This document shows positions 6,931 to 63,611 of a DNA stretch of 64,000 nt, in pieces. A program made the position numbers and the translations under genes. Numbering within the stretch: the first letter of the stretch is position 1; every line of letters begins with the position of its first letter. This stretch comes from a virus. Under the pieces are notes generated by a model that worked only from the letters and a program-made list of their open reading frames with translations, ran no database searches and had not been told where the DNA came from. The DNA lies in IMG/VR virus record IMGVR_UViG_3300045988_113168, one strand, 5' to 3'.

Positions 6931-6945
6931 AATTTGTCTCCTTTT

Positions 6946-6975: not shown

Positions 6976-6997
6976 CCAGATTTGCCTTTGGTAAAAA

Positions 6998-9580: not shown

Positions 9581-9604
9581 AATTCATTTCCTTTCTCTTC
9601 GCGC

Positions 9605-9637
9605 AAAATAAAAGAGCTACCGCCAAAGACGATAGCC
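9605..9637 (-). terminator. probable rho-independent terminator
   Basis: imperfect stem GGCTATCG/CGGTAGCT followed by CTTTTATTTT on minus strand. Confidence 0.45.
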
Positions 9638-9676
9638 TTAAATTTCACGTATCATATTCAAGATTTTTTCTCTCAA

Positions 9677-10153
9677 TCAAGCAACAGTCTTTGCCTCGGG
9701 CAGCACACTGATCATAATCAGCTTATGGCCATTGTCATCCATCACACCAGCAAACTCAAAACGAGAAGTACCAGTAGTAGCAACCTGCCACTTACCGTCG
9801 GTATTAACCTCCAGCAGCTTGCCGATATTAGTGTCCTGTGCATCAGCAGTCTTGTACTGGTCAGTACCATACAGTTCGCCAGCATACAGAGGAACGCGCT
9901 TCACCAGCACACCTGCCTCAATCTTGGTGACCATCTTATCATAGTCATCAAAATTAGTCTGGCTTGCATAGATGCCCTCGGGAATAAACTCATGGGCAAC
10001 CATCTCGATGCCCTCAGCGGTAGCTGCATCAGGGAACTTAACCTGACCAGCCTTGTGGTCAACCTGAACACCCATACCGGTGACCATAGCGACCTTTGCG
10101 GCATAGTTAGCGGGAATATTCTTCGCGCCGTTCACCATCAGTTCACGAATCAT
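9677..10153 (-). CDS. putative head decoration-like protein
   Basis: 158 aa from ATG after GAAAGGA; sits between scaffold and capsid genes (lambda D-like position); function by synteny only. Confidence 0.35.
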   Translation of the reverse strand: MIRELMVNGAKNIPANYAAKVAMVTGMGVQVDHKAGQVKFPDAATAEGIEMVAHEFIPEGIYASQTNFDDYDKMVTKIEAGVLVKRVPLYAGELYGTDQYKTADAQDTNIGKLLEVNTDGKWQVATTGTSRFEFAGVMDDNGHKLIMISVLPEAKTVA

Positions 10154-10180
10154 AATATTTTTCCTTTCTCTCAAATGTTA

Positions 10181-11755
10181 TTACTTACCCAAATATTCCC
10201 GCCATGCGTCACGCTTGTTAGCGTTAGTGGTGTTATACTTGGTTTCATTCAAATTCAGCTTGATACTCTCAGGCTTATGTACCTCAGAAGTCTCAATATT
10301 CTTTTCAGCAGGCTTTGCATTCTTAGCGGCTTCAACACAGCGAGAAGCAATCACACCATTGATGCCAGCCTCATCCAGATTCTCAATCATACTTGCAAAT
10401 TCGCCCTCACCGGTCAGTTCAGCCTCAGTAATCATCTTGCTGGAAATAGCATACTGGCGCAGATTTTCCTTTTTCTGTGCAAGCTCGGCCTCCGCCTTTT
10501 CTGCAGCTGCCTTCTCCGCCTGTTCCTTGTACGGAGTCAGCTCCGCAATCTCATCCTTAGCAGACTGCAACTCTGTATTCAGGCTTGCGACAGTCTTGTT
10601 CAGCTCATCAATCTTGGTGTTGACCTGAGAAACAGAAACAGTCAGAGTAATATTCTGCGGCTCACCCAGAGAAACTTCATCACCCTCAACAGTATAAGGG
10701 AACATAATGTAATCCAACTCGTTCATGTAGCCCCACTTCTTGCACCAGATAGTGTGATCTTCAGGGAACATATCGGTCATGTAGTAATCAGAGCTAATCT
10801 TTGACACTGCATCTTCAAGCTTCATATACAGGTCACGACCGGTCAAACTGGAAGTCTCAGTGGTAGACTCCGGCTCTGGCTCACCAGCAGGCTCGGTGCT
10901 GGTTTCAGGCTCAGTCGGGGGAGGGGTTTCACCGCCTTCCTCAGAAGTCTGAACATCAGGCTCTGCCGGAGTGGTGGGCTCGGTGGTAGACTCAGTAGTG
11001 GTCTGTTCTGCCTGCTCAGTCTCGGTTTGATTCTCAACCTGTGCGGCCTGAGTCTCCTTGTCCTTATTCAGTTCCAAATTTTTTGCCTCCTTTTCATTAG
11101 ATTCTATATTTGAAATCTCTTTTGTGTCCTCGATATAGGCATTTGCCAATTCAAGACCAAAATCGGTTTCAGCGACTTCAAGCAGTTTAGAGCACTTATA
11201 TGCCGGTTCAACATTTGCACCAAGCAGACAATGTGCAGTAAACACGCCATCGTCAATAATTTTTGCCATGCGGCCACCCACGATTCCCTTATGAGCTTTT
11301 AGCACATCAATTTCCCAACTGGTATTTAATGTGCCACTCTCAATACGGCGCAGAATCGTCGCACAAGCTTTTGGATATCGCTTCCAGATCTTACAAGAGG
11401 CAACAATAAAGTCGGTATCGTCAATTTTCTCGATACCGACCGATTGAAAGCTACCGAACGCATCAGTGTCAAATTCGGCAGTCTTGTATTCATTGCCGTC
11501 AGCGTCTTTTCTGGTGACGACTTTCATATTGTGACCAGAAAAATCCAGTTCACCCTTTGGAGCTACGACCAACTTACCAACAAGCGGGTTGCCAACCAGT
11601 GTACTCATCCAACTTTCAATGGTTTCACGGTTCAAAGCAACCTGATTTCCATTTACTGAGAAATCACAAATGATAAACTTGGCAAGATAGTGGTCTGGAT
11701 GCTCCGTAATCTCAGAGCAACAGATGTTTCTACTATAGAAATACTCCTTACTCAT
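10181..11755 (-). CDS. putative prohead scaffold / protease-like protein
   Basis: 524 aa between portal and capsid genes; central acidic Thr/Glu/Pro-rich linker and C-terminal coiled coil (AELTPYKEQAEKAAAEKAEAELAQKKE). Confidence 0.45.
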   Translation of the reverse strand: MSKEYFYSRNICCSEITEHPDHYLAKFIICDFSVNGNQVALNRETIESWMSTLVGNPLVGKLVVAPKGELDFSGHNMKVVTRKDADGNEYKTAEFDTDAFGSFQSVGIEKIDDTDFIVASCKIWKRYPKACATILRRIESGTLNTSWEIDVLKAHKGIVGGRMAKIIDDGVFTAHCLLGANVEPAYKCSKLLEVAETDFGLELANAYIEDTKEISNIESNEKEAKNLELNKDKETQAAQVENQTETEQAEQTTTESTTEPTTPAEPDVQTSEEGGETPPPTEPETSTEPAGEPEPESTTETSSLTGRDLYMKLEDAVSKISSDYYMTDMFPEDHTIWCKKWGYMNELDYIMFPYTVEGDEVSLGEPQNITLTVSVSQVNTKIDELNKTVASLNTELQSAKDEIAELTPYKEQAEKAAAEKAEAELAQKKENLRQYAISSKMITEAELTGEGEFASMIENLDEAGINGVIASRCVEAAKNAKPAEKNIETSEVHKPESIKLNLNETKYNTTNANKRDAWREYLGK

Positions 11756-13409: not shown

Positions 13410-15260
13410 TTAGAAGTCAATATTAGAAATACAAATTGGCGGTGCAGTCATTACCTCCACCGCAGACTGGCGCACTTTATCCTTACGACGTAATTCATAT
13501 AGACGATGAGCAAGCAAGATCGCAACATAGAACCTATCATCGTGGATTTTGTTGGCAACATCGGGCGCTAAAGCATACGTTACAGTCGTGTTTTCAGAGT
13601 TTGTCGTTTTCTGAATACTTGTAATCTCGTTCTTCATCAAGTCGATGTTAACCCACGCAGTTTGTTCTTCTAAAGTAAGTTCATGCGTCTTCAAAATTTC
13701 TTGACCAGTTGATTTATCCACGCCGTCTACTACCTGAACGTAATCTCCGCCGTTATATTCAAGAGGGAAGTGAATGACGCCAAGATTCATCAACTCAATA
13801 AATTCCTCAACCATGGCAGTACGGAATTTACGAGGACTAATTAGACGTAGCTTATCAACAGCATCTGGGTAACGGGCATCATATCCTTCATATAATTCAT
13901 GATTTGCGTCGATAAAACCACGATGTTCCGCACCTGTTTTATCGGTCCAATTATTAAGCAAACCGTCCGCATATGTGGAAGTACCACCGCCGCCAGCGCC
14001 TTGGTCAATCATCAATCTATCAATGTACTCGTAATCAGGATTTTGACCATTGTAATGTAGAATCAACTCATGTAACTGCTCAAGCTGACGATTAGAATCG
14101 AGCTTGAATTTTTTCTCATTTGCAATATCAACCATGTTCACGCAGTTGATAATATCTCCACACATGCCATTTTCTGGATCGTTATAAATACGCATAACAC
14201 CAACAATAGAATTATCCATTGTGCGGGCAGGATCAAACGCAAGAATATACTGATAGTTCTTATCCCAATAAAGCTGTGGGATATACTTTCGCTCATTGCG
14301 ACGAACTGTGCCCCATTTGATAATCTGGTTTACGCCACCATCACGGCTTGGGCGATTATAATATTCACGCAACGCCTTCATTTTATTTGACTTTAGAGCG
14401 GCTTCCACTTTGTCTCTTGTCAACAAAGCCTTGTATGGTTTACCATTCATATAGACCTGAATTGCAACATCGCAAATCATGTCGCAAACAAAATAATCAC
14501 GGTCACCGGCGATCATACGTTTTGCAAAGTTTTTGTAATAACGATAGAATAGTTTATCCATTGTATCCTGACTCGAAGCATACACAAGTTGTGTAGGAAC
14601 CTTGCGAGGCTGAGTTTCAGGATTATAAGAATCATCCGTATCAGTCACGAAGTCAGTATTCTGAGTGGCAAAAGCTTCACAGACAACAATCAGTTCGTCA
14701 GAGCAAAACGCAGCCTCGTCAAAAAACACAAGAGTTGCACGACGGGATCGGTTGGAATCCGGGTTGGAGTTTAGCGTGTTAATGGAGCTACCGTTGTAAA
14801 ACTCAACAACATACCCGGCGGGATTATGACTAAAGCCACTCTTATTGGTTGCAGACTTTTTCGTTTCTTTCTCTGCAATATCTTGCAGACTACGGATAGA
14901 CGCAGCTGTTTTACCAACACGAGTGACAATTTCTTCGATTTTATTAAAAGTTTCCTTACTCTGATCACCAACGCTACTTACGATGTAAATAGCTTGGTTT
15001 TCATACAACATAGCCTTCAGTAGAATAAAAACAGAACCTACAAAAGACTTACCAAAATTTCGACTACACGCCCAAAGAACATGACTTGCATTCCAGCTTT
15101 GTTCCAGCATATATGCCTGAGCGTCAAATAGTTGGATACCCAATAAATCTCTGGCCGCAATAACAGGATTACGCCGATAGAACGCAATCGTTGCCGCATC
15201 ACACTCATAAATCTTACGTTTTACGGCTGTGATAATAGGCGCTCTTTGCTTCATTCTCAT
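13410..15260 (-). CDS. terL: terminase large subunit
   Basis: 616 aa; Walker A-like SRNFGKSF, Walker B LVFFDEAAF, C-terminal nuclease-size domain; followed by portal. Confidence 0.8.
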   Translation of the reverse strand: MRMKQRAPIITAVKRKIYECDAATIAFYRRNPVIAARDLLGIQLFDAQAYMLEQSWNASHVLWACSRNFGKSFVGSVFILLKAMLYENQAIYIVSSVGDQSKETFNKIEEIVTRVGKTAASIRSLQDIAEKETKKSATNKSGFSHNPAGYVVEFYNGSSINTLNSNPDSNRSRRATLVFFDEAAFCSDELIVVCEAFATQNTDFVTDTDDSYNPETQPRKVPTQLVYASSQDTMDKLFYRYYKNFAKRMIAGDRDYFVCDMICDVAIQVYMNGKPYKALLTRDKVEAALKSNKMKALREYYNRPSRDGGVNQIIKWGTVRRNERKYIPQLYWDKNYQYILAFDPARTMDNSIVGVMRIYNDPENGMCGDIINCVNMVDIANEKKFKLDSNRQLEQLHELILHYNGQNPDYEYIDRLMIDQGAGGGGTSTYADGLLNNWTDKTGAEHRGFIDANHELYEGYDARYPDAVDKLRLISPRKFRTAMVEEFIELMNLGVIHFPLEYNGGDYVQVVDGVDKSTGQEILKTHELTLEEQTAWVNIDLMKNEITSIQKTTNSENTTVTYALAPDVANKIHDDRFYVAILLAHRLYELRRKDKVRQSAVEVMTAPPICISNIDF

Positions 15261-16723: not shown

Positions 16724-16799
16724 TGGCACGCCCACTCCGATTCGGACAGAGAACAAATGGTTTTAGAGACCACTGCTTTACCAATTAAGCTACGGGCGC
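16724..16799 (-). tRNA. suppressor tRNA, anticodon CUA (reads UAG), tRNA-Trp-like body, CCA encoded
   Basis: GCGCCCG-UA-GCUU-AAUUGGUA-AAGC-A-GUGGU-CUCUAAA-ACCAU-UUGUU-CUCUG-UCCGAAU-CGGAG-UGGGCGU-G-CCA. The 7-nt loop has U33 and A37, so positions 34-36 = CUA. Confidence 0.75.
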
Positions 16800-16820
16800 A
16801 TAAATATATCAGCATACAGG

Positions 16821-16900: not shown

Positions 16901-17008
16901 TCATATGGTGCCTAAGTGTCTCAAGAAATAGAAAGTCATGTGTACATCATGATTCTAAAACCCAGACTTCGGACTTGCTATATGTCGCGCTCATATAGCC
17001 ATTTTCTT

Positions 17009-17116
17009 CGAGCTTGACAGGATTCGAACCTGCGCTGTATCCACGAATAAGCAATCTCGCTTCGTGCAGATGTCTGCTACCATCCGCTACGTTCAACCTC
17101 TTCGCATTACAAGCTC
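17009..17116 (-). ncRNA. atypical 108-nt tRNA-like RNA
   Basis: perfect 7-bp acceptor GAGCUUG/CAAGCUC, Ser-like D-arm (GCG-AAGAGGUUGAA-CGU) and canonical T-arm GCAGG-UUCGAAU-CCUGU. Two hairpins replace a standard anticodon arm. Confidence 0.4.
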
Positions 17117-17183
17117 ACAATAAAACCTACCTTTTAGCCGGTGGTAGGGAACCGGTATAATATAGGCCCTCCGGGAGAAGGAC

Positions 17184-36995: not shown

Positions 36996-37241
36996 ATGAT
37001 GCGTAATTGTTGGATTGTCACATACAAAGATTATCACGGAGAATATAGCTAGTGTGTTTTTTATAAAAAAGAGGATGCAGAAAAATGTATCAAAGAGGAT
37101 TTTGAAAACGCGTTGCATGACTTAAAAAAAGATGGGTGGTATGACCCGTACACGGTTGATGGAACGTATTGGAAGACAATATTTATTCCGAATACCGATA
37201 TTGATTATGAATGGAATCTTAAGATTTCAACCATTAGATGA
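36996..37241 (+). CDS. hypothetical protein with in-frame TAG (codon 19, 37050-37052)
   Basis: SD TTGAGGTGATAAT-ATG is identical in style to neighbouring genes. Coding-like sequence on both sides of the TAG (..YKDYHGEYS-x-CVFYKKEDAEKCIKEDFENAL..). It fills an otherwise empty 250-nt gap. Confidence 0.6.
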
Positions 37242-46935: not shown

Positions 46936-47754
46936 ATGAGTGCAGCTGTTGAAAGAAAAGAAGAACAGATATCTAAATTGATTTATTTTAATCCGAAGCC
47001 TTCTGTTCCGGCTAAAAAACGTGGTGCTACAAAAAGTAAGCAGAAGCGTAAGCGTAATATTTCTCCAATTAGAAGCTTGGATGATGTTCAAATGATTTCA
47101 GAATACTTCTGGGATAAAAAGCAATATCGCAATTGGTGTCTATTTAATGTCGGTATTGCAACTGGGTTGCGTGCTAGTGACTTGCTTAAATTGAAAGTTT
47201 CTGATATGTCTTACTGTCTTTATAATGGAAAAATTGAGGTGGTTGAAGACGCTGGAGTATGCATCGTTGAAGAAAAAACATCCAAGTATCGCGAAATTAT
47301 TCTTACTCCAGAAGCGAGGGACATTGTTGAAACATACATCAAGATTGTGAATCTTGGATATGATGATTGGATGTTTCCGTCTCGACAAGGGAGTTGGAAA
47401 AAGTCGTTGAGGACAAATGGTGGAGATGGGAAAACTGGTATTCCTCATATTGCAGAACCTAAAAAGGCCGGTGATCCTATTGATGTTGATTCTTTTGCTC
47501 GTATTCTTCGTAATGCTGGTAAGGATTTAGGTCTTAATTATAAGATTGCTTCTCACTCTTGCCGTAAGACGTTTGGTTATCGTGAAATGTGCCTTAACAA
47601 GGATGACAATCAGGCACTGTCTTGGATTCAGAGTCAGTTGAATCATAGTAGCCAGGATATTACATTACGGTACGTTGGTTTTGATGAGGATAAGACAAAA
47701 GAATATTATAAGAAGACTTTTTATGGTGTGAATACACACAGCTTGGAAGACTGA
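46936..47754 (+). CDS. tyrosine recombinase (second integrase-family gene)
   Basis: 272 aa; ATGLRASDLL, HSCRKTFGY, LNHSSQDITLRYVG. Confidence 0.8.
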   Translation: MSAAVERKEEQISKLIYFNPKPSVPAKKRGATKSKQKRKRNISPIRSLDDVQMISEYFWDKKQYRNWCLFNVGIATGLRASDLLKLKVSDMSYCLYNGKIEVVEDAGVCIVEEKTSKYREIILTPEARDIVETYIKIVNLGYDDWMFPSRQGSWKKSLRTNGGDGKTGIPHIAEPKKAGDPIDVDSFARILRNAGKDLGLNYKIASHSCRKTFGYREMCLNKDDNQALSWIQSQLNHSSQDITLRYVGFDEDKTKEYYKKTFYGVNTHSLED

Positions 47755-54497: not shown

Positions 54498-54917
54498 ATG
54501 GACAACAATATTGACCCGAAGGTCGGAGAGGTTTGGTTGGTTGATCTATCTAATGCGACGGGCCATCAGCAGCGCGGTATTCGACCGTTTGTTGTGACAA
54601 GCAACAACAAGCGCAACTTCTTCAGTCCCACAATCAAAGGGAATCCGTTGTCTTCCAGAATATACAAGCGTTCTCCGGTTCATGTCCTGCTCTCAAAGGA
54701 AGATTGCGATTTTCTGGAAGTTGACAGTATCGTTCTCTGCGAAGAGACTGATACGCTTAACAAAGGGCAGTTCATCAAAAAGCTTGGTGTCTTGTCTGAG
54801 CGTCATATGAATATGATCGCAATGGCCAGATGCAAGGATGAACCGTTTTTGCTCGCAGCATTCCTAAGCGGCGTACAACATACTATGGAATTTCAGAATT
54901 TTGCCGCATTTGCTTGA
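54498..54917 (+). CDS. mazF: MazF/EndoA (PemK)-family endoribonuclease toxin
   Basis: 139 aa; GEVWLVDLSNATGHQQRGIRPFVV.SNN..N.FSPT ... DSIVLCEETDTLNKGQFIKKLG.LSERHM aligns with B. subtilis EndoA as I recall it. Confidence 0.75.
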   Translation: MDNNIDPKVGEVWLVDLSNATGHQQRGIRPFVVTSNNKRNFFSPTIKGNPLSSRIYKRSPVHVLLSKEDCDFLEVDSIVLCEETDTLNKGQFIKKLGVLSERHMNMIAMARCKDEPFLLAAFLSGVQHTMEFQNFAAFA

Positions 54918-56031: not shown

Positions 56032-58242
56032 ATGAGAACTTTGCTTCTTTTCCGTGGAGCACCAGGATGCGGGAAGTCCACCTATATTAAAGAGCATGAT
56101 CTGGAAAAGTATACGCTTAGTGCCGATACGATTCGCCTTATGTGTCAGGGTGGTCAGGAAACCCCGGCTGGCACAATGGAAATCTCTCCCCAGAACGATG
56201 ATGTTGTCTGGGATATGCTCTTTAAACTGTTGGAGGTTCGGATGTCTCACGGTGAATTTACCGTGATTGATGCAACGAACTCTAAAACTGTCGAAATCAA
56301 TCGCTATAAGAATCTTGCCAAGCAGTACAGGTACAGAATGTACATCATCGACATGACTGATTTGCCCATTAGTGAGTGTAAACGGCGTAATTCGCTTCGC
56401 ACTCTTCTGAAGAGAGTCCCGGATGCTGCCATTGATAAGATGTATGCACGATTCGCAACGCAGAAGATTCCGTCTGGTGTGACTGTACTCTCGTCAGATG
56501 TAAATATCCTTGAGAAATTGAACTATGTTCCGCAGGACTTTAACAACTGGAGCAAAATTCATATCATCGGTGATGTGCATGGGTGTTACAGTTGCTTGAA
56601 AGAGTATCTTGGCGACCTGAAGGATGATGAACTGTACATTTTTGTTGGCGATTATCTGGATCGTGGAATTGAAAATGTAGAGATGTTCAAGTTCCTTTGT
56701 GATGTTGTAGACAATAATCGGAAGAATGTGATCCTTTTGGAAGGAAATCACGAGCGTTGGCTGAACAAGTGGGGGCATGATGAACCGGTTCAGAGTGAAG
56801 AATTTGCAAACTACACTCGTCCGCAGCTCTTTAAAGCCGGTATTGACAAGAACACTGCTCGTAAGATCTATTCCAGAGTCGGCCAATGTGCCTACTTTGA
56901 GTATGATGGGAAACGGTATTTTGTGAGCCACGGTGGTTTGAGTTATCTGCCTTATTTTCTTCCTTTTGTATCTGCTGATCAGATGATTAAAGGCGTAGGT
57001 CGCTATCCTGATATGCTAACCGTGGCTGAGTCTTGGGAAAAATCGATGCCGGATAGCTGCATTCAGATCTTCGGTCATCGAAATGTGCAGGATGTTCCCA
57101 TTGATATGGGGCATCGGTGCTACAACCTCGAAGGAAAAATCGAGTTTGGTGGATATCTCCGTTGCGTGGAACTTGAACACGGTCAGTCAATCAAATGTGT
57201 AGAAACCAAGAACGATGTGTTCCGAAAAGAGGAGCCAAAGACTGAAACTGCCGTTGAAATGAAAACTGAGTTCGATAACGCAGAACTTGTTAGTAAGATG
57301 CGCAAAAGCAAATATGTGTTTGAGAAGCGATTCGGAGATATTTCTTCTTTCAACTTCTCTCGTGAAGCATTTTACAAGAAGCACTGGGATGAGGTTTCTA
57401 CCAAAGCAAGGGGATTGTTCATTAACACAAAGACGAATAAGATTGTAGCTCGAAGCTATGATAAGTTCTTTGCGGTTGATGAGCGGAATGAAACGAGAAT
57501 TGGAAACCTACAGAACACTTTGAAGTTCCCGGTGACTGCATATCTAAAAGAGAATGGATTTCTCGGTATCATTTCGTATGATGCAGAACAGGATGGTCTG
57601 TTCATTGCAAGTAAATCTACTCCTGAAGGGCCTTTTGCAGATATGTTCCGAAAGATTTTCATGGATACGACTTCTGATGAAGACCGTAAGAATCTAAAGG
57701 AAGTTGCAAAAGAGAATGGTTCCATCATTTTTGAGGTAATTGATCCTGTAAATGATGCTCATATCATCGAATACAAGACACCACATATTGTTTTGCTGGA
57801 TATTATTGCGAATGATATGAACTTCAGTGTGATGGATTACGATGATCTGAAGCGTGTTGCTGAAAAGTGTCATTTGCAGATTAAGGAGAAGGTTAAGATC
57901 TTTGAGAGCTGGAGTGAATTCTATCCTTGGTATGAAGAAGTCATGAATGAGAATTATCTGTACCATGGCATCGAGCATATTGAAGGTTTTGTTTTGAGAG
58001 ATAACAACAATTTTATGTTTAAGCTGAAGCTTCCTTATTATAAGCACTGGAAGTTCTTGCGTGGTGTTATGCAGAGCGTACAGAAGCGTGGCTATTACGA
58101 AAACACTGCCAAGCTGTTTACTGCTGAAGATAATTTATTCTATGGTTGGATGCGTGAACAACGAGAGAAAGAAAAAGAGTCTTTCTGCAAGAAGGGTATT
58201 ATTCAGTTACGGAATGAATTCTATGAGAATCGGCACGAATAA
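56032..58242 (+). CDS. trifunctional RNA-repair enzyme: polynucleotide kinase + metallophosphatase + ligase-like adenylyltransferase (Pnkp-like)
   Basis: 736 aa; P-loop GAPGCGKST, phosphoesterase motifs GDVHGC / GDYLDRG / GNHE, and a C-terminal KENG (KxNG nucleotidyltransferase motif I). Same domain order as Clostridium thermocellum Pnkp. Confidence 0.7.
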   Translation: MRTLLLFRGAPGCGKSTYIKEHDLEKYTLSADTIRLMCQGGQETPAGTMEISPQNDDVVWDMLFKLLEVRMSHGEFTVIDATNSKTVEINRYKNLAKQYRYRMYIIDMTDLPISECKRRNSLRTLLKRVPDAAIDKMYARFATQKIPSGVTVLSSDVNILEKLNYVPQDFNNWSKIHIIGDVHGCYSCLKEYLGDLKDDELYIFVGDYLDRGIENVEMFKFLCDVVDNNRKNVILLEGNHERWLNKWGHDEPVQSEEFANYTRPQLFKAGIDKNTARKIYSRVGQCAYFEYDGKRYFVSHGGLSYLPYFLPFVSADQMIKGVGRYPDMLTVAESWEKSMPDSCIQIFGHRNVQDVPIDMGHRCYNLEGKIEFGGYLRCVELEHGQSIKCVETKNDVFRKEEPKTETAVEMKTEFDNAELVSKMRKSKYVFEKRFGDISSFNFSREAFYKKHWDEVSTKARGLFINTKTNKIVARSYDKFFAVDERNETRIGNLQNTLKFPVTAYLKENGFLGIISYDAEQDGLFIASKSTPEGPFADMFRKIFMDTTSDEDRKNLKEVAKENGSIIFEVIDPVNDAHIIEYKTPHIVLLDIIANDMNFSVMDYDDLKRVAEKCHLQIKEKVKIFESWSEFYPWYEEVMNENYLYHGIEHIEGFVLRDNNNFMFKLKLPYYKHWKFLRGVMQSVQKRGYYENTAKLFTAEDNLFYGWMREQREKEKESFCKKGIIQLRNEFYENRHE

Positions 58243-58308: not shown

Positions 58309-58387
58309 GGCCCTATGGCGGAACGAGGCATACGCAACAAGCTCAAACCTTGTAAAATTCTCAGTTCAAATCTGAGTAGGGCTACCA
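58309..58387 (+). tRNA. tRNA with anticodon CAA but class I (short variable arm) architecture, CCA encoded
   Basis: GGCCCUA acceptor, loop CUCAAAC, T-arm CUCAG-UUCAAAU-CUGAG, A73. Confidence 0.5.
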
Positions 58388-58466
58388 ACCCATTTGCAGA
58401 TGGGTAAGTGCTAGAATATTGGCAAATCGGAAAGACGGTTGACTGCTGGACAGACAGCTTTGATAT

Positions 58467-58551
58467 GTCACTATGGCGAAATTGGCGAGACGCATCGGAC
58501 TTAAGTTCCGACGGTAGCGATACCATCTGGGTTCGACTCCCAGTAGTGACA
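58467..58551 (+). tRNA. tRNA-Leu (UAA), class II
   Basis: GUCACUA/UAGUGAC acceptor, loop CUUAAGU, long variable arm, T-loop UUCGACU. Confidence 0.75.
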
Positions 58552-58558
58552 CTGATAT

Positions 58559-58634
58559 CCGGGTGTAGCTCAGTTGGAAGAGCGCGTGCTTTGGGAGCAT
58601 GAGGCCGCAGGATCGTGACCTGTCACTCGGACCA
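58559..58634 (+). tRNA. tRNA-Pro (UGG), CCA encoded
   Basis: loop UUUGGGA; T-loop AUCGUGA (A54/U58). Confidence 0.7.
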
Positions 58635-58666
58635 GCCCGAAAGGGCATGTAGAATTTTTCATTCAC

Positions 58667-58722
58667 ATTATTCCCAGCTCTCTGGAAACAGAGCAGTGTG
58701 GCGTAGCAAGCTGGGTAGATTA
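58667..58722 (+). repeat. 56-nt structured tRNA leader element, copy 1
   Basis: ATTATTCCCAGCTC..; 7-bp stem CCCAGCT/AGCTGGG enclosing CTCTG-GAAA-CAGAG; abuts tRNA-Gln. Confidence 0.7.
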
Positions 58723-58794
58723 CGAGGATTAGCCAAGCGGATAAGGCAGTGGAATTTGACTCCACGACCGCAGGTTCGATTCCTGTATCCTCGA
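58723..58794 (+). tRNA. tRNA-Gln (UUG)
   Basis: CGAGGAU/AUCCUCG acceptor, loop AUUUGAC, T-loop UUCGAUU. Confidence 0.7.
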
Positions 58795-58801
58795 TTTATA
58801 T

Positions 58802-58886
58802 GCGGGTATGGTGTAACTGGCAGCCACGCGGATTTTAGGTGTCCGTGCCGAAAGGCGTGAGGGATCGTGCCCCTCTACCCGTACCA
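58802..58886 (+). tRNA. tRNA-Leu (UAG), class II, CCA encoded
   Basis: loop UUUAGGU, variable arm UGCCGAAAGGCGU, T-loop AUCGUGC. Confidence 0.7.
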
Positions 58887-58933
58887 CGGTCATAGAATGG
58901 TTGCGTACCGTTTGTTGATCTCCTTTGACCACT

Positions 58934-58989
58934 ATTATTCCCAGCTCGCTCGTAAGAGTGCAGTAGTGCTTTGTAAGCTGAGTGATTGT
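58934..58989 (+). repeat. 56-nt structured tRNA leader element, copy 2
   Basis: ATTATTCCCAGCTCGCTCGTAAGAGTGCAGTAGTG..TAAGCTGAGTGATTGT; same architecture (GNRA hairpin CTC-GTAA-GAG). Confidence 0.7.
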
Positions 58990-59061
58990 GCAGTTATGGT
59001 GTAGTTGGTAAGCACGCTTGCTGATGAAGTAAGAGGATGAGTTCAAAACTCATTGACTGCA
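58990..59061 (+). ncRNA. tRNA-like gene with aberrant anticodon loop
   Basis: good acceptor, D and T arms (AUGAG-UUCAAAA-CUCAU), but the loop is UGAUGAA (G33) and the variable region is 3 nt; anticodon not assignable by eye. Confidence 0.4.
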
Positions 59062-59065
59062 AAAT

Positions 59066-59258
59066 ATGAAATCAGTTGTTCTAGCTCGTTCGTGGATTGG
59101 CCGTACATTGGCGACCGGAAAGACGTCATACCGGTAAAGGACGTCAAGCCAGACAAGAAGAGAAATAAGGTGTAAGCCGACTAGCTATCGGATAAATACT
59201 CTTCGGTTCGCCAGAAAACTAGAATGTAAAACGAATGGTTGGCTGTTTCTGATTTCAT
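59066..59258 (+). ncRNA. unclassified ~193-nt structured RNA inside the tRNA array
   Basis: closed by a 10-bp stem ATGAAATCAG/CTGATTTCAT, then TTCTAG/CTAGAA. Internal GGCGACCGGA/TCTTCGG(T)TCGCC, GACGTC/GACGTC and CCGA/TCGG helices. No ORF. Confidence 0.45.
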
Positions 59259-59264
59259 TTATAT

Positions 59265-59340
59265 GCGACTGTAGTTCAATTGGCAGAGCGTCAGATTTCC
59301 AATCTGAATGTTGCGGGATCGTGCCCCGTCAGTCGCTCCA
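59265..59340 (+). tRNA. tRNA-Gly (UCC), CCA encoded
   Basis: GCGACUG/CAGUCGC acceptor, loop UUUCCAA, T-loop AUCGUGC. Confidence 0.7.
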
Positions 59341-59471
59341 CACGCAGCCCCTTACGCTGCACCGGTTGCTCAGAGCCGAAAGAAACCTATATGTTACGAC
59401 ATGGTTGCCAAGAGTGATCATATTGGAACGCGACGTAGCTTGGATAGTGAGAATTAAATTCTGAGGTATAC

Positions 59472-59540
59472 TGCTGGATAGCTTAATGGTAAAAGCGCTC
59501 GGAAACGCCGAGAGATAAGGTTCGATTCCTTCACTGGCAT
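59472..59540 (+). ncRNA. 69-nt tRNA-like RNA with 5-nt anticodon-position loop
   Basis: D-arm GCUU-AAUGGUAA-AAGC and T-loop UUCGAUU are present, but the anticodon arm is CUCGG-AAACG-CCGAG. Confidence 0.35.
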
Positions 59541-59567
59541 CACGCCGATGAAAGTCGGCGTTTGCAT

Positions 59568-59644
59568 GGGATAGTAGCTCAGTTGGTCAGAGCTGGCGGC
59601 TCATAACCGCTTGGTCGCGAGTTCAAATCTTGCCTGTCCCACCA
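59568..59644 (+). tRNA. tRNA-Met (CAU) (elongator or Ile2-type), CCA encoded
   Basis: GGGAUAG acceptor, loop CUCAUAA, T-loop UUCAAAU. Confidence 0.7.
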
Positions 59645-59768: not shown

Positions 59769-59785
59769 AAAAAGGAGGAGTTGTA

Positions 59786-60478
59786 ATCTTACGAGTTCTA
59801 ATTGCCTGTGAAGAATCACAGGAAGTTTGTAAAGCATTTCGATTGCTTGGTCATGAAGCGTATTCTTGCGATATTCAACCTCCGTCCGGTGGTTGCCCAG
59901 AGTGGCATATTTTGGGTGACGCACTGGCAGCTCTACAGGGTGGGCAGATAGTCACAATGGATGGCACACAACACTATGTTGAGCAGTGGGATCTATTGAT
60001 TGCACATCCTCCGTGTACATATTTATCAAACGCTGGCGCACGATGGTTATGGGCTGGACACAAATTGAATCAAGAACGGTATCAACGAGGATTGGAAGCT
60101 AAGGAGTTTTTTATGGCGTTTTATAACGCACCGATCAAACACATTTGTGTTGAGAATCCAATTCCGAGTGCTGTTTATGAAATGCCAAAACCATCGCAGA
60201 TGATTCAGCCATATGAATTTTATGGTAAGGACCATCCATGGACAAAGAAGACCTGTTTATGGCTGAAAGGTCTTCCTAATCTGGCTCCGGTTGAAGCGGT
60301 TGAACCGAAGGGTCCGTATTGTCCGTGTGGAACTTCCGCTAATAAAGGTAATGTAAGAAATCGTGGCGCAGCTAAACGTGGTGAGGATGCAAAGAATAGG
60401 GCTAAGACCTTCCATGGGATTGCTCGTGCTTTTGCAGAACAGTTCTCAGAGTACATTGAAAATGAAGGAGATGAGTAA
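59786..60478 (+). CDS. C5-cytosine-methyltransferase-like protein (PPC / ENP motifs, atypical N-terminus)
   Basis: LLIAHPPCTYLS (motif IV-like) and ICVENPIPS (motif VI-like). The conserved-looking N-terminus LRVLIACEESQEVCKAF lies upstream of the first canonical start. AAAGGAGGAG is 7 nt before an in-frame ATC at 59786. Confidence 0.55.
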   Translation: MLRVLIACEESQEVCKAFRLLGHEAYSCDIQPPSGGCPEWHILGDALAALQGGQIVTMDGTQHYVEQWDLLIAHPPCTYLSNAGARWLWAGHKLNQERYQRGLEAKEFFMAFYNAPIKHICVENPIPSAVYEMPKPSQMIQPYEFYGKDHPWTKKTCLWLKGLPNLAPVEAVEPKGPYCPCGTSANKGNVRNRGAAKRGEDAKNRAKTFHGIARAFAEQFSEYIENEGDE

Positions 60479-61592
60479 AAATTTGGTCTCAAACATCAAG
60501 ACTTTTAATCCATTAAATGTGTCCAGTAAGTTCGCCATATGCGGACTTCCCATCAGAATAGACTCATACAAGACCTGCTCTTTTGGTTGTAAATACTGTT
60601 TTGCAGAAAACCGAAAGATAATGGAGTACGACAAACACATACAGATCGGAAACGTAAGACAAGTAAAACAAAAGTTACATAGGATTTTTGATGAACGAAC
60701 TGTTGATGCCACAAAACTTCTTGATGTTTTGATTGCAGATGGAATTACGTGGCATTGCGGAGGAATGAGTGACCCATTCCAGCCATGCGAGCAAAAGTAT
60801 CATATTACAAAGCAAATTGTCGATATAGCGAATGAATATAATGTGAGTATTTTATTCTCGACAAAAAGCAATTGTTTGTATGGTGCCGATGTTAAACCTG
60901 ACCTACATACATTTCAATTGAGCGTTAGCAATGTTGATGACAGGCGAGATATCGAGCCAAATGTACCAAGTATCGCTGAGAGATATAGATTCTTTTGTGA
61001 TTTAAAGAATGCTGGATTTAGAGTTGGTATCCGAATCCAACCTTTCATCCCTAATGTTTCTACATTAAAAATTGTAGAGATGTTCAAGGACGCAGACCAG
61101 TTTACAATCGAAGGCGTGAAAATCGTACCACAGAATAAAGAGTGTAAGGAATTTATTTTGGAGCACTTGGGCTTAAATCGATGCGATTTTACCCAAATGG
61201 GGTTACTGAATCTAAAACCAGAGGTTCGGCTGCAGCTCTATAAGCCGTTTATTGATTATTTCAAGCAGAATGATATTCCTTATTCGATTGCAGACAATGA
61301 CTTGCGCTGGATTGGAAATAACAAATGTTGCTGTGGAGATAGGCTAGTAAAGAAAAGCACGAATTTTAATACCACTCGTATGATTATGGATTATGGTATC
61401 GACTACAGCAAAGAACAGCTTGACGAAGAACTTGGATGTTCTGGGTGTGGAGATTGTAAATGCAATAATCTTTTTACGTCTAATAGACAAGAAGGCTGTA
61501 TTACCGTCAGTGACTTCTATGGTAAAAGGTTTGAGCGAAAGTCTAGTCCGTTCTCACCGAAGTTTCAGTACATTTCTGAAACAATCTCATAA
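60471..61592 (+). CDS. radical SAM enzyme (SplB / DNA-photolyase-like COG1533 type)
   Basis: 373 aa from MSKNLVS; CSFGCKYC = CxxxCxxC cluster near the N-terminus; overlaps the stop of the upstream gene. Confidence 0.65.
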   Translation: MSKNLVSNIKTFNPLNVSSKFAICGLPIRIDSYKTCSFGCKYCFAENRKIMEYDKHIQIGNVRQVKQKLHRIFDERTVDATKLLDVLIADGITWHCGGMSDPFQPCEQKYHITKQIVDIANEYNVSILFSTKSNCLYGADVKPDLHTFQLSVSNVDDRRDIEPNVPSIAERYRFFCDLKNAGFRVGIRIQPFIPNVSTLKIVEMFKDADQFTIEGVKIVPQNKECKEFILEHLGLNRCDFTQMGLLNLKPEVRLQLYKPFIDYFKQNDIPYSIADNDLRWIGNNKCCCGDRLVKKSTNFNTTRMIMDYGIDYSKEQLDEELGCSGCGDCKCNNLFTSNRQEGCITVSDFYGKRFERKSSPFSPKFQYISETIS

Positions 61593-61620
61593 AAGGCTAA
61601 TTCAAATAAGAGGTGACACG

Positions 61621-61827
61621 ATGAACAGCAAAATTTCTATCAATGCAACCATCGACCCCGGTTCTTTGAGTATTCCGGCAAGTCCTATCTTCCAACAGGA
61701 AAAGAATACATATTTTTGTCCGTTTTGTGTGACGAAGCTGTAGAAGTTCGAGCGTGAATGTTCTGATTGTCATCGCAAGATGGATTGGAGTAGGTTCACT
61801 GAAAAGAAGGAGGAGGTGTTCACTTGA
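61621..61827 (+). CDS. zinc-ribbon protein with in-frame TAG (codon 41, 61741-61743)
   Basis: reading through the TAG completes a CPFC-x10-CSDC zinc ribbon. The extended frame ends in a TGA that overlaps the TTG start of the next gene (TTGA) behind AAGGAGGAGG. Confidence 0.65.
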
Positions 61828-62102
61828 ATATAGATTTCTTCCGACGGCGCAAGACTCAGCTTGAAGATACGCTTCTTTTGAAAAATCAGGCCGTCGATAT
61901 GCTTGATTATCTAAAGACGCACTGCATCAACAATGACCAGTATTGTGTAATTCGGGATTATATTGAAGAAGCTGCGAAGATTCTGGAGAGCGATCTCGAA
62001 TATGCAAATAACAAACTGCAGTCTGCATTTAGACCTAAGCATGGTCGGAACAACAGATTGACTCGTGCTCAATCTAAGATGTTCCGTGATAGGGAATATT
62101 AA
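61824..62102 (+). CDS. hypothetical protein
   Basis: 92 aa, TTG start after GAAGGAGGAGG. Confidence 0.55.
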   Translation: MNIDFFRRRKTQLEDTLLLKNQAVDMLDYLKTHCINNDQYCVIRDYIEEAAKILESDLEYANNKLQSAFRPKHGRNNRLTRAQSKMFRDREY

Positions 62103-62118
62103 AATGGGGTGATGCCGT

Positions 62119-62331
62119 ATGAACACATGTAAGAAAATATGTAACTGGTGTGGTCGTGAAATCAAGCCGATAGGCAGCGAGCAGGGAATCAGTTTTGAAC
62201 ATCAATACTCTTACGGTAGCCAACTTGATGGTTCGCTTTTGAGTTTTGATCTGTGTCCTGAATGTTCAGAACGGCTCCCGGTAGTGCTCGGCGCGATGTT
62301 TTTACATAATCCCTTAAAGGACGATTTCTAA
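62119..62331 (+). CDS. hypothetical zinc-ribbon protein
   Basis: 70 aa; CNWCGRE ... CPEC. Confidence 0.55.
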   Translation: MNTCKKICNWCGREIKPIGSEQGISFEHQYSYGSQLDGSLLSFDLCPECSERLPVVLGAMFLHNPLKDDF

Positions 62332-62476
62332 CGGTAAAAGCCGTATGAAATATAAGCCATCAATAAGCCAGACGGAGGATAATACATAGAATGAATAGTG
62401 CATGAATTGATTTAAGACAGCATAAAGAAACATAAGTGATTGTTAATGAAACAAAATTACATAAAGGAGACTTGAT

Positions 62477-63580
62477 ATGGCAGATAGAATTTTTAATCTT
62501 CCTCAGACCCGTGGCTCTTTTGAGATGGCTGGTAAGGTCACCGGCACTCAGCGTAGCAACTTCTATAATGAGAAGGAGACAAAGAGTGGTGCTATGCGCC
62601 GTGTCTTGAGCTTTGGCGTTCAGACCTCTAACGAGAACACTTTCTATATTGATCTGGCTGGTATGCCTCGTGACAAGGTTTACTTCTTCCGACGTGCCGA
62701 TAAGGACAAGGGCATTGAGAAGGACAAGAAGGAAGTCGCTTGGAAGGATCGCATGACCTATGTTGCACCGGAAGGCTATGACATGATTGGCGTTAAGGTC
62801 GGTGTTACCAAGAAGACGAATGAGTCCGGCAAGGTTGTCAACGATAACAAGACTCTGACTGACTTCGATGCAGCTAAAGAGATTTCTGAGAACCTGCATG
62901 ACGGCGATAATGTGTATGTCCGTGGTAACATTGAGTACAGCACTTACAATGGTAAGCACCAGATTCGTTTTGTTCCTACTCAGGTGTCGCTGAGTTCTAA
63001 GGAAATCGACTTCGATGCAGAGGGTTTTGAGGAACTGGCTCTGTTCACTCAGACCATTGTGTACACTGGTTGCCGCAAGAGCGATGAGGGTGATGAAGTA
63101 GTTGTCGATGCGAAGATCGTAAACTATAACACCATCGAGGATGCAGAGTTCTTCATTGATTATAAGGCAAACGCTCAGAATAAGGTCCTGGCTGATTCTA
63201 TTCGTAAGCGTCTGAAGCCTTATACTAGCTTCGAGTGTTTTGGTCCCATCGTTAATCAGCAGAAGGTTGAGGAAGTTGAGACCGAGAATATCTGGGGTGG
63301 TCCCAACAAGATGAAGCGCCAGAGCACTCCGGCGGTTCGCAAGCTGTATATCGAGGGTGTTAATCCTGATTCCTTTGATCCGAATCCCGGCGAGAAGGAT
63401 GCAGAGCCTACTTACACCGAGGACAATATCTCTGAGGCACGTGCAAAGATTGCCGCTAATGCTCAGGCCAAGAAGGATTTTGACGGCAAGGCTGCTGAGA
63501 ACGACACTTCTTGGTGGGGTGGTTCTAACAAGTCTACTGTAACTCCTGTAGACGAGGAAGAGGATGACTGGGGAGTGTAA
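62477..63580 (+). CDS. putative ssDNA-binding protein
   Basis: 367 aa, SD AAAGGAGA; acidic C-terminal tip EEEDDWGV; next to a recombination ATPase. Confidence 0.45.
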   Translation: MADRIFNLPQTRGSFEMAGKVTGTQRSNFYNEKETKSGAMRRVLSFGVQTSNENTFYIDLAGMPRDKVYFFRRADKDKGIEKDKKEVAWKDRMTYVAPEGYDMIGVKVGVTKKTNESGKVVNDNKTLTDFDAAKEISENLHDGDNVYVRGNIEYSTYNGKHQIRFVPTQVSLSSKEIDFDAEGFEELALFTQTIVYTGCRKSDEGDEVVVDAKIVNYNTIEDAEFFIDYKANAQNKVLADSIRKRLKPYTSFECFGPIVNQQKVEEVETENIWGGPNKMKRQSTPAVRKLYIEGVNPDSFDPNPGEKDAEPTYTEDNISEARAKIAANAQAKKDFDGKAAENDTSWWGGSNKSTVTPVDEEEDDWGV

Positions 63581-63589
63581 TTTTTAGTC

Positions 63590-63611
63590 TTAGCTAAGTA
63601 ACACAGGATAC
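63590..63611 (+). repeat. 22-nt motif copy H
   Basis: TTAGCTAAGTAACACAGGATAC. Confidence 0.8.

What the first reader, a model, noticed from the sequence alone, without database searches (positions are those of the whole stretch)
61621..61827. Gene with in-frame TAG #2: TAG sits inside a CxxC-x10-CxxC zinc ribbon
The standard-code ORF stops at TAG (61741) right after FCPFCVTKL. Read-through gives KFERECSDCHRKMDW..., which completes a four-Cys zinc ribbon. The extended frame ends at a TGA overlapping the TTG start of the next gene (TTGA), directly behind its SD. This is the translational-coupling geometry used throughout the operon, and both facts argue that the TAG is translated.
Basis: seen in the sequence. 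Interest (0 to 1): 0.75.

Follow-up and report, generated by a model that had tools for sequence, protein, structure and literature searches.

The report
Amber codon inside phage zinc-ribbon gene
A small, conserved phage zinc-ribbon gene carries a recent Glu-to-TAG mutation in a gut phage that has its own tRNA-Trp-derived amber-suppressor tRNA, so the stop is probably read through at least in part; this is a sparse, early-stage case of the known phenomenon of stop-codon recoding in phages.

Summary
The ATG at 61621 opens a frame that meets TAG at 61741-61743 between two CxxC motifs. The frame ends at TGA 61825-61827, which overlaps the TTG start of the next gene.

- **Orthologues:** the gene is real and conserved. 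About 126 orthologues are full length, all four Cys are invariant in 80 of 80 IMG/VR copies, and codons 42-57 are under purifying selection (pN/pS 0.19).
- **The TAG is not conserved:** 80 of 80 IMG/VR orthologues have Glu (GAA or GAG) there, including an otherwise identical protein. It is a recent GAG-to-TAG change. It is fixed in a strain found on at least 24 contigs from independent samples, so it is not a sequencing error.
- **Suppressor tRNA:** the phage is SPβ-like, about 137 kb. It encodes a tRNA with anticodon CUA that is clearly derived from tRNA-Trp and sits on a ~97-nt cassette present in 10 of 26 related contigs.
- **TAG usage:** TAG is essentially never a terminator here. Every in-frame TAG found, including one in the terminase of four relatives, lies in a genome that carries this tRNA.

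Read-through to the 68-aa protein is therefore likely but unproven. A truncated null allele remains a serious rival, and the inserted amino acid (Trp or Gln) is unresolved.

The parts
61621..61827 (+). Zinc-ribbon ORF of 68 codons including the in-frame TAG. The standard-code product is 40 aa and the read-through product is 68 aa.
   Evidence: Searches give the sequence. One search gives pN/pS of 0.13 for codons 1-40 and 0.19 for codons 42-57.
61741..61743 (+). In-frame TAG (codon 41), derived from GAG (Glu).
   Evidence: 80 of 80 IMG/VR orthologues have GAA (43) or GAG (37). L017 encodes the identical protein with GAG; the TAG allele is on at least 24 contigs from independent samples.
61610..61615 (+). 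Shine-Dalgarno GAGGTG of the zinc-ribbon gene.
61824..62102 (+). Downstream 92-aa gene. Its TTG start overlaps the TGA of the extended frame (TTGA), and its own SD AAGGAGGAGG lies at 61807-61816.
   Evidence: The TTGA overlap is conserved in most orthologous loci.
16724..16799 (-). Phage tRNA with anticodon CUA, an amber suppressor with a tRNA-Trp-derived body, G73 and an encoded CCA end.
   Evidence: ARAGORN (its 'Pyl' label reflects only the anticodon). Rfam tRNA model, 56 bits. Trp-like body. Cassette present or absent.
36996..37241 (+). Second gene of the window with an in-frame TAG (37050-37052). It has 81 codons and unknown function.
   Evidence: Orthologues have AAG (Lys) at this codon. 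The TAG is reproduced in a Logan contig that is 99.8% identical.
15072..15074 (-). TGG (Trp) codon of the terminase large subunit (gene 13410-15254) just before the Walker A motif. It is TAG in four related tRNA-CUA-bearing contigs.
   Evidence: TerL is identified.

Best explanation
The gene encodes a small conserved Cys4 zinc-ribbon protein of unknown function. It lies in the early/DNA-metabolism operon of an SPβ-like gut phage of about 137 kb.

In this strain, codon 41 mutated from GAG to TAG. Codon 41 is an otherwise invariant Glu in the linker between the two zinc knuckles. The strain also carries an amber-suppressor tRNA (anticodon CUA), which arose from the clade's tRNA-Trp by a C35-to-U change and sits on a ~97-nt cassette after tRNA-Met.

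When that tRNA is expressed and charged by a host synthetase, a fraction of ribosomes reads the TAG. They then complete the second CxxC and terminate at the TGA that overlaps the next gene's start. The remaining ribosomes release a 40-aa fragment.

The TAG is therefore best seen as a nonsense mutation made tolerable by the phage's own suppressor. This is the early 'accumulation' step of stop-codon recoding, not a designed recoding site.

- **Shown:** the sequence anatomy, conservation of the downstream half, the derived status and reality of the TAG, the tRNA and its Trp origin, the avoidance of TAG terminators, and the co-occurrence of in-frame TAGs with the tRNA.
- **Inferred:** that the tRNA is expressed, charged and active on this codon, and which amino acid it inserts (Trp and/or Gln).
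For: - **The gene is real and constrained beyond the TAG.** 46 database homologues and 80 IMG/VR loci are full length. C33, C36, C47 and C50 are invariant in 80 of 80, with synonymous TGT/TGC variation. pN/pS is 0.19 for codons 42-57.
- **The TAG allele is real.** Identical 210 nt occur on contigs from ERZ28658762, SRR32792899, ERZ27266271, ERZ25083963, SRR32792875, ERZ27274551 and ERZ925405, with two different upstream cassettes.
- **The tRNA looks functional and conserved.** tRNA-CUA is called by ARAGORN and by Rfam at 56 bits. It is conserved in 10 IMG/VR contigs, identical apart from G46A in five of them.
- **TAG is not used as a terminator.** In the window, stops are TAA 63, TGA 49 and TAG 3. 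The three TAGs are this gene and two spurious ORFs. Across the clade, unique proteins end in TAA 318, TGA 153 and TAG 7, and 3 of those 7 are in-frame sites. A distant relative, L003, has 4 TAG stops in 22 genes.
- **Other in-frame TAGs occur in tRNA-bearing genomes.** The sites are the terminase (four contigs, one apparent event), a ClpP-like protease, one further gene and window gene 36996-37241. None was found in 138 kb of contigs that lack the tRNA cassette.
- **In-frame TGA and TAA are rarer.** There are 5 in-frame TAG events against 1-2 TGA and about 0 TAA.
- **No alternative expression route.** There is no start codon or SD that could express the C-terminal half separately.
Against: - The TAG replaces a Glu that is invariant in 80 of 80 orthologues with mixed GAA/GAG codons. 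Even a read-through product, with Trp or Gln at that position, may be impaired.
- The family tolerates C-terminal damage elsewhere, so the gene may be dispensable. Examples are frameshifted or ribbon-less variants P0028, P0036, P0043 and P0046 and a TGA in the tail in L002.
- All TAG-allele copies are identical, so there is no evolutionary signal of constraint on the downstream half after the mutation.
- TAG terminators are avoided even in clade members without the tRNA cassette. Avoidance alone therefore does not prove that the suppressor is active.
- The tRNA lies in the opposite-strand structural block and its timing relative to this operon is unknown. It also has an unusual C55 in the T-loop.
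- There are no expression or proteomic data.
Confidence: 0.6

Rival explanations
1. Null or truncated allele. The TAG terminates translation, and the strain makes only the 40-aa N-terminal fragment with half a ribbon. The gene is dispensable or decaying, and the intact downstream frame simply reflects how recent the mutation is.
For: - The TAG is unique to one near-clonal strain, and the downstream sequence shows zero divergence.
- It hits a strictly conserved Glu.
- Other lineages carry disrupted or ribbon-less versions, while the N-terminal ~31 aa are kept.
- L002 has a TGA in the tail, and L035 has a TGA in a methylase. Ordinary nonsense alleles therefore do occur in this clade.
- The downstream gene has its own strong SD, so it does not need coupling.
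Against: - The strain carries a conserved amber-suppressor tRNA.
- Relatives with that tRNA keep TAG in the essential terminase, so TAG must be readable in this system.
- Both interrupted genes of the window are interrupted by TAG, not by the more mutationally accessible TAA or TGA.
- The closest GAG-bearing relative, contig 088812, lacks the tRNA cassette.
Confidence: 0.3
2. Designed recoding. The phage uses a reassigned code (code-15-like), and the TAG is a conserved, regulated sense codon that ties expression of this gene to the phage tRNA. This is essentially the first reader's view.
For: The phage has a tRNA-CUA and avoids TAG terminators. This is the known paradigm in recoded gut phages (bioRxiv 10.1101/2021.08.26.457843; PMC10607447).
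Against: - 0 of about 126 orthologues have TAG at this site.
- Only 2 in-frame TAGs occur in about 84 kb of this genome, both in small accessory genes and none in structural or lysis genes.
- The tRNA is a cassette that is present in some clade members and absent in others.
- Residues aligned with clade TAGs are E, K, Q, Q and W, which is not one consistent amino acid.
Confidence: 0.07
3. Sequencing or assembly artefact. The true base is G (GAG).
For: It is a single-base difference from the nearest relative, L017.
Against: The exact TAG-terminated 40-aa product is indexed in 27 blocks of the collection (24 contigs read). It comes from independent ENA and Logan assemblies, and all seven inspected (six, L138) carry TAG.
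Confidence: 0.02

Closest known systems
TAG-recoded (code-15-type) gut phages with phage-encoded tRNA-Sup(CTA), such as crAss-like, Lak and phAss-1/Phassvirus (Borges et al., bioRxiv 10.1101/2021.08.26.457843; Babkin et al. 2023, PMC10607447; Peters et al. 2022, PMC9523058)
   Same: Phage-encoded tRNA with anticodon CUA, TAG abandoned as a terminator, and in-frame TAG in genes whose homologues have sense codons. The setting is the human gut, and the genome size is about 135 kb, like phAss-1.
   Different: - Recoding is very sparse: 2 sites in about 84 kb, against 41 of 147 ORFs in phAss-1.
- The sites are strain-specific and lie in small accessory genes, not in late or lysis genes.
- Aligned residues are E, K, Q and W rather than consistently Gln.
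- The tRNA is Trp-derived, whereas phAss-1's was typed as Gln by tRNAscan-SE.
- The tRNA cassette is polymorphic within the clade.
- There is no nucleotide similarity to any INPHARED phage.
Borges et al. model of the route to recoding: rare stop codon, then suppressor tRNA acquisition, then accumulation of in-frame stops
   Same: All three stages are visible within one clade:
- TAG-free termination in members with and without the tRNA.
- A discrete tRNA-CUA gain/loss cassette.
- Sporadic in-frame TAGs only in tRNA-bearing genomes.
   Different: Their example of a standard-code phage with a newly acquired suppressor concerned TGA in Agate phages. Here the codon is TAG, in an SPβ-like clade, and GC content is not especially low (41%).
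E. coli Su7 (supU), the tRNA-Trp CCA-to-CUA amber suppressor (classical genetics, recalled from own knowledge)
   Same: Same origin: a tRNA-Trp body with the single anticodon change C35 to U and G73 retained.
   Different: Su7 is a laboratory chromosomal mutant that is charged mainly with Gln by GlnRS. Here the tRNA is a natural phage gene, and its charging is unknown. The host is probably a Bacillota species, many of which lack GlnRS (inference).
Small Cys4 zinc ribbons (Pfam A2L_zn_ribbon, DZR and Zn_ribbon_6; the TFIIE-alpha, eL43 and RanBP2-type ribbons)
   Same: A CxxC-x10-CxxC pattern with two predicted beta-hairpin knuckles. The weak profile and fold hits are all to zinc ribbons.
   Different: No hit reaches a curated threshold or significance. 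No PHROG family matches, and the function is unknown.

Membership tests
Stop-codon-recoded (TAG-suppressing) phage | Phage-encoded suppressor tRNA with anticodon CUA | tested here: met
   16724-16799(-). Conserved in 10 related contigs.
Stop-codon-recoded (TAG-suppressing) phage | TAG not used as a terminator of genuine genes | tested here: met
   In the window, 0 genuine TAG stops among about 112 genes. In the clade, at most 4 of 478 unique proteins, against 4 of 22 in the distant relative L003.
Stop-codon-recoded (TAG-suppressing) phage | Many genes, typically late or essential ones, need TAG read as sense | tested here: not met
   Only 2 small accessory genes in about 84 kb of this genome. 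Relatives show single sites in the terminase and a ClpP-like protease.
Stop-codon-recoded (TAG-suppressing) phage | In-frame TAG aligns with one amino acid (Gln for code 15) in homologues | tested here: not met
   This site aligns with Glu in the 80 IMG/VR orthologous loci and in 82 aligned clade copies. Other clade sites align with Lys, Gln, Gln and Trp.
Stop-codon-recoded (TAG-suppressing) phage | TAG actually translated (protein evidence) | not testable with these tools
   No proteomic or reporter data are available.
Cys4 zinc ribbon | Two CxxC knuckles, with all four Cys conserved in homologues | tested here: met
   C33, C36, C47 and C50 are invariant in 80 of 80, with synonymous codon variation.
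Cys4 zinc ribbon | Significant match to a curated zinc-ribbon family or solved structure | tested here: not met
   Pfam hits are below the cut-offs (best is A2L_zn_ribbon at 20.4 bits against a cut-off of 22.9). The best PDB profile hit has E 0.1 and the best Foldseek hit has E 0.098.
Cys4 zinc ribbon | Predicted two-hairpin ribbon fold | tested here: inconclusive
   In the AF2 model of orthologue P0002, residues 31-60 have pLDDT 76-82 with short paired strands, but the overall mean is 62.
tRNA-Trp-derived amber suppressor (Su7 type) | tRNA-Trp body differing from tRNA-Trp(CCA) at anticodon position 35 | tested here: met
   - All significant annotated blastn hits are tRNA-Trp.
- A 23-nt D-stem/anticodon-arm segment is identical to tRNA-Trp(CCA) genes except at position 35.
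- The acceptor stem, G73 and CCA end match the clade's own tRNA-Trp(CCA).
tRNA-Trp-derived amber suppressor (Su7 type) | Charged with Trp and/or Gln and active in suppression | not testable with these tools
   This needs aminoacylation or reporter assays.
Pyrrolysine decoding (ARAGORN label 'tRNA-Pyl') | Pyl-type tRNA architecture (rather than a canonical cloverleaf) | tested here: not met
   The tRNA is an ordinary 76-nt cloverleaf with a 5-nt variable loop and a Trp-like sequence. The label reflects only the anticodon.
Pyrrolysine decoding (ARAGORN label 'tRNA-Pyl') | pylS and pylBCD genes present | not tested
   No search for pyl genes was run; only a subset of the window's proteins was scanned against Pfam/PHROGs, and none of those matched a pyl family.
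Programmed stop-codon read-through (conserved leaky stop with extension domain) | Stop codon conserved among orthologues | tested here: not met
   0 of about 126 orthologues have a stop at codon 41.

The most novel reading that the evidence does not exclude
This SPβ-like gut phage clade may be a natural snapshot of amber-codon capture in progress.

- A tRNA-Trp duplicate mutated to anticodon CUA segregates as a ~97-nt presence/absence cassette.
- TAG had already been purged as a terminator.
- In-frame TAGs, including one at a conserved Trp codon of the terminase, arise only in cassette-bearing genomes.

If the tRNA is still charged by TrpRS, this would be a TAG-to-Trp (or ambiguous Trp/Gln) reassignment. 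Only TAG-to-Gln has so far been reported for phages that differ in code from their hosts.
Probability: 0.25. Interest if true: 0.7.

Novelty: new member of a known kind. Interest (0 to 1): 0.5.

Why it matters
Taken alone, the site is one more in-frame amber codon in a phage that carries a suppressor tRNA. Annotation pipelines split or truncate such genes: public gene calls list a 40-aa product here.

The clade around it is more useful. It combines three things in closely related genomes:
- TAG-free termination.
- A gain/loss-polymorphic suppressor that is visibly derived from tRNA-Trp.
- A handful of very young in-frame TAGs at Glu, Lys, Gln and Trp codons.

That makes the proposed route to stop-codon reassignment directly testable. 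It also raises the question of which amino acid such a tRNA inserts in a host that probably lacks GlnRS.

Tried and rejected
- **Known phages:** megablast of 60300-63600 and tblastn of the 68-aa product against INPHARED phages found nothing. The phage could not be tied to a described genus by nucleotide similarity.
- **Function of the two TAG-containing genes:** PHROGs gave no family for either. Pfam gave only sub-threshold zinc-ribbon hits for the 68-aa product and nothing for 36996-37241.
- **Host:** a scan of genome contigs with the family alignment found no relative, so there is no prophage-based host assignment.
- **E. coli tRNAs:** blastn of the tRNA against E. coli genomes found nothing.
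- **First in-frame stop census:** the version with fixed coding-score thresholds was noisy. It missed known sites and picked up antisense frames and gene boundaries. I replaced it with a best-of-six-frames filter.
- **Independent translation of the C-terminal part:** rejected. The only in-frame start is ATG at codon 54, and it has no SD.
- **The 'tRNA-Pyl' label:** rejected as anticodon-only.
- **The coupling geometry:** rejected as evidence for read-through, because it predates the mutation.
- **More TAG sites in the same genome:** scanning about 10 kb beyond each end of the window found none.

Full report
**1. The observation**

The sequence is as described. GAGGTG lies at 61610-61615 and ATG at 61621. 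Forty sense codons end in ...FCPFCVTKL and are followed by TAG at 61741-61743. Another 27 open codons (KFERECSDCHRKMDWSRFTEKKEEVFT) follow, and then TGA at 61825-61827. The four cysteines give C33xxC36-x10-C47xxC50, with the TAG as residue 41 in the linker. The TGA overlaps TTG 61824-61826, the start of a 92-aa ORF that has its own AAGGAGGAGG at 61807-61816. After the TAG, the only in-frame start codon is ATG at codon 54, and it has no SD. The C-terminal part therefore cannot be expressed on its own.

**2. The gene is real and its second half is constrained**

A search with the 68-aa read-through product found 46 cluster representatives (E down to 6e-32). Most are full length at 63-76 aa. A scan of IMG/VR confirmed 123 related stretches, of which 80 loci were kept.

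In all 80 loci:
- C33, C36, C47 and C50 are invariant, with synonymous TGT/TGC variation.
- H51 and W56 are invariant.
- pN/pS is 0.13 for codons 1-40 and 0.19 for codons 42-57.

Functionally the protein remains anonymous:
- Pfam hits to zinc-ribbon families are all below threshold, and no PHROG matches.
- PDB profile hits are insignificant but go to the TFIIE-alpha and eL43 ribbons.
- An AlphaFold model of orthologue P0002 is moderately confident only for residues 31-60 (pLDDT 76-82).
- Its Foldseek neighbours are all small Cys4 fingers, with E of 0.1 or worse.

**3. The TAG is a young, strain-specific substitution but a real one**

Every one of the 80 IMG/VR orthologues has Glu at codon 41 (GAA 43, GAG 37). 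The database proteins have Glu, or rarely Lys. Locus L017 (contig 3300045988_088812) encodes exactly the window's protein, but with GAG. It differs from the window at 22 of 2418 flanking bases. The window's codon therefore arose by GAG to TAG.

It is not an error. The exact 40-aa standard-code product is indexed in 27 blocks of the collection (24 contigs read), from independent ENA and Logan assemblies. All seven copies inspected carry TAG: six loci have the identical 210 nt and L138 shows the same TAG and flanking codons. The copies occur in two upstream contexts: the window's, and one with a different methylase cassette. The window itself is 100% identical over the 5,380 bp compared to ENA ERZ28658762 scaffold_68, which is 137,766 bp long. 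Because all copies are identical, there is no post-mutation signal of selection on the downstream half.

**4. What kind of phage, and how it treats TAG**

Neighbouring genes carry Pfam families named after Bacillus phage SPβ (YonD_N, YonB, YomW, YomU_Tube). The genome also encodes a DNA pol III alpha subunit, a RecJ-like protein and a terminase large subunit. Nearly all genes have strong GGAGG-type SDs. I infer that this is an SPβ-like siphovirus of a Bacillota host from the human gut.

A simple gene model built on codon score and SD gives 115 genes in the window, ending in TAA 63, TGA 49 and TAG 3. The three TAGs are this gene, an ORF lying over tRNA genes, and a 46-aa ORF without an SD. Across the clade loci, unique predicted proteins end in TAA 318, TGA 153 and TAG 7. 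Three of those seven are in fact in-frame sites. A distant relative, L003, has 4 TAG stops in 22 genes.

Only two TAGs in the window have coding potential on both sides: 61741, and 37050 in an 81-codon gene. At 37050 the orthologues have AAG (Lys). That TAG is also reproduced in an independent Logan contig, whose gene caller translated it as Gln. About 10 kb beyond each end of the window contains no further site.

**5. The suppressor tRNA**

ARAGORN and Rfam both call a 76-nt tRNA with anticodon CTA at 16724-16799(-). The 'Pyl' label reflects only the anticodon.

Its body is tRNA-Trp:
- Every significant annotated blastn hit in phage genomes is a tRNA-Trp, from Pakpunavirus, mycobacteriophages and Cellulophaga phages.
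- The 23-nt segment TAAAGCAGTGGTCTC-N-AAAACCA recurs in bona fide tRNA-Trp(CCA) genes of unrelated phages, with N = C.
- The clade's own tRNA-Trp(CCA), seen in L128 and L135, shares the acceptor stem (GCGCCC... / ...GGnCGT), G73 and the CCA end.
- It is unlike the window's tRNA-Gln(TTG).

A homologous CTA tRNA occurs in a human faecal phage contig, MT835556.

In the clade, the tRNA plus a 21-nt spacer is a clean ~97-nt insertion or deletion between tRNA-Met and a hairpin. It is present in 10 of 26 contigs that share that tRNA-Met. It is identical among them apart from G46A in five. The nearest GAG-bearing relative of the zinc-ribbon gene, contig 088812, lacks the cassette.

**6. Is TAG read in this system?**

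Indirect evidence says yes.
- Four cassette-bearing contigs (L009, L010, L011, L013) have TAG in the terminase large subunit. It lies one residue before the Walker A segment (…NASHVL*ACSRNFGKSF), where the window and six others have TGG (Trp).
- Contig 112453, which also carries the cassette, has TAG at Gln positions of a ClpP-like protease and of another gene.
- With a best-of-six-frames filter, the census gives 5 independent in-frame TAG events, 1-2 TGA and about 0 TAA.
- No in-frame TAG was found in 138 kb from cassette-lacking contigs.

The numbers are small, at roughly p of 0.03-0.05 on simple binomial reasoning. The sampling is also uneven, because loci were partly fetched through the tRNA. 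An essential terminase interrupted by TAG in four assemblies is nevertheless hard to explain without suppression.

The aligned residues are E, K, Q, Q and W. All are one substitution away from TAG, so they look like random nonsense hits that survived rather than a consistent reassignment. They do not settle the inserted amino acid. From general knowledge, the E. coli tRNA-Trp(CUA) suppressor Su7 is charged largely with Gln. Many Bacillota lack GlnRS, however, so Trp is a live possibility here.

**7. Interpretation**

- **Most likely (about 0.6):** the TAG is a recent nonsense substitution that persists because the phage's own amber suppressor lets some ribosomes complete the ribbon. The result is a mixture of 40-aa and 68-aa products.
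- **Main rival (about 0.3):** it is simply a null or truncating allele of a dispensable gene. It hits an invariant Glu, other lineages carry damaged or ribbon-less versions, and ordinary TGA nonsense alleles exist in the clade.
- **Designed or conserved recoding (about 0.07):** disfavoured, because no orthologue shares the TAG.
- **Artefact:** excluded.

TAG-terminator avoidance extends to members without the cassette, so on its own it does not prove suppressor activity.

**8. Comparison with what is known**

The mechanism is the known one of phage-encoded suppressor tRNAs and TAG recoding in gut phages (bioRxiv 10.1101/2021.08.26.457843; PMC10607447; PMC9523058). This case differs from typical code-15 phages in four ways:
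- Recoding is sparse and strain-specific.
- In-frame TAGs are absent from this genome's structural genes.
- The residues aligned with TAG are not Gln.
- The suppressor is visibly Trp-derived and segregates as a cassette.

It fits the route proposed by Borges et al. (rare stop codon, then suppressor acquisition, then accumulation of in-frame stops) and illustrates its early stage for TAG. I file it as a new member of a known kind. The less certain possibility is that the clade documents an ambiguous or TAG-to-Trp reassignment.

**9. Verdict**

| Item | Verdict |
|---|---|
| Observation | Confirmed |
| Interest | 0.5: ordinary as a single site, but the surrounding clade is a good natural system for studying the onset of recoding |

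Noticed in passing
window 6229-9580 (-): A group I intron (Rfam RF00028, 75 bits, 8417-8759) and an HNH homing-endonuclease ORF (7181-8296; phrog_559, E 3e-87) interrupt a structural-block gene. The upstream part is 8756-9580 (YonB-like) and the downstream ORF is 6229-6930. A long antisense ORF at 8744-10804(+), 687 aa, has no family hit and is probably spurious.
   Followed up: partly
window 56032-58242 (+) and 58309-59644: A fused polynucleotide kinase, phosphoesterase and T4 Rnl1-type RNA ligase (Pfam AAA_33, Metallophos and RNA_lig_T4_1) lies directly upstream of an 8-9-gene tRNA cluster. This suggests a tRNA-repair function.
   Followed up: partly
L009 3380, L010 2360, L011 2760, L013 5862 (window equivalent: 15072-15074, -): The terminase large subunit of four related contigs has an in-frame TAG where the window and six others have TGG (Trp), one residue before the Walker A-like ACSRNFGKS segment.
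   Followed up: yes
L016 5796 (-), L099 19539 (+) (both from contig 3300045988_112453): In-frame TAGs at Gln positions of a ClpP-like protease and of a protein of about 270 aa, in a contig that carries the tRNA-CUA cassette.
   Followed up: partly
window 16724-16820 compared with L121-L136: The tRNA-CUA plus a 21-nt spacer is a clean ~97-nt presence/absence polymorphism after tRNA-Met, present in 10 of 26 contigs. Contigs L128 and L135 lack it and instead have a tRNA-Trp(CCA) with the same acceptor stem on the other side of tRNA-Met.
   Followed up: yes
L110 10551-10649, L112 12126-12224, L118 334-432, L120 5085-5183: Other phage contigs (three of 134-141 kb; L120's is 54 kb) carry a 99-nt tRNA-like gene. 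It has the same CTCTAAAAC anticodon loop, a long variable arm and an A73-CCA end, and it sits next to tRNA-Gln and tRNA-Trp genes. ARAGORN could not type it. It may be a second class of amber suppressor.
   Followed up: no
window 58989-59062 (+) and 59472-59540 (+): ARAGORN calls a tRNA-His with the unusual anticodon ATG. Rfam finds an additional weak tRNA (32 bits) at 59472-59540 that ARAGORN does not report.
   Followed up: no
L035 841 (+); L002 7430 (+); L072 (zinc-ribbon tail): Ordinary non-TAG nonsense codons occur in relatives. L035 has TGA at a Gly that is conserved in 61 orthologues of a C5-methylase-like gene. L002 has TGA at an Arg position, and L072 has a stop, in the variable C-terminal tail of the zinc-ribbon gene.
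   Followed up: partly
window 59779-61582 compared with L017, L103 and L106: The segment upstream of the zinc-ribbon gene holds a DNA methyltransferase (59843-60478) and a 409-aa DUF1848/photolyase-like protein. It is a swappable cassette, and near-identical strains carry a 460-aa DNA methylase plus a 91-aa ORF instead.
   Followed up: partly
window 191-1180 (-), 46936-47754 (+), 54498-54917 (+): The window has two tyrosine-recombinase (Phage_integrase) genes. A public gene call also marks a PemK-toxin-like ORF. Together these hint at a temperate or plasmid-like lifestyle.
   Followed up: no
window 16901-17183 (-): The 283-nt gap between tRNA-Ser and tRNA-Met contains a GGTTCGAATCC T-loop-like motif near 17030 but no called tRNA. 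Relatives L128 and L135 have tRNA-Trp(CCA) at the equivalent place, so this may be a degenerate tRNA remnant.
   Followed up: no
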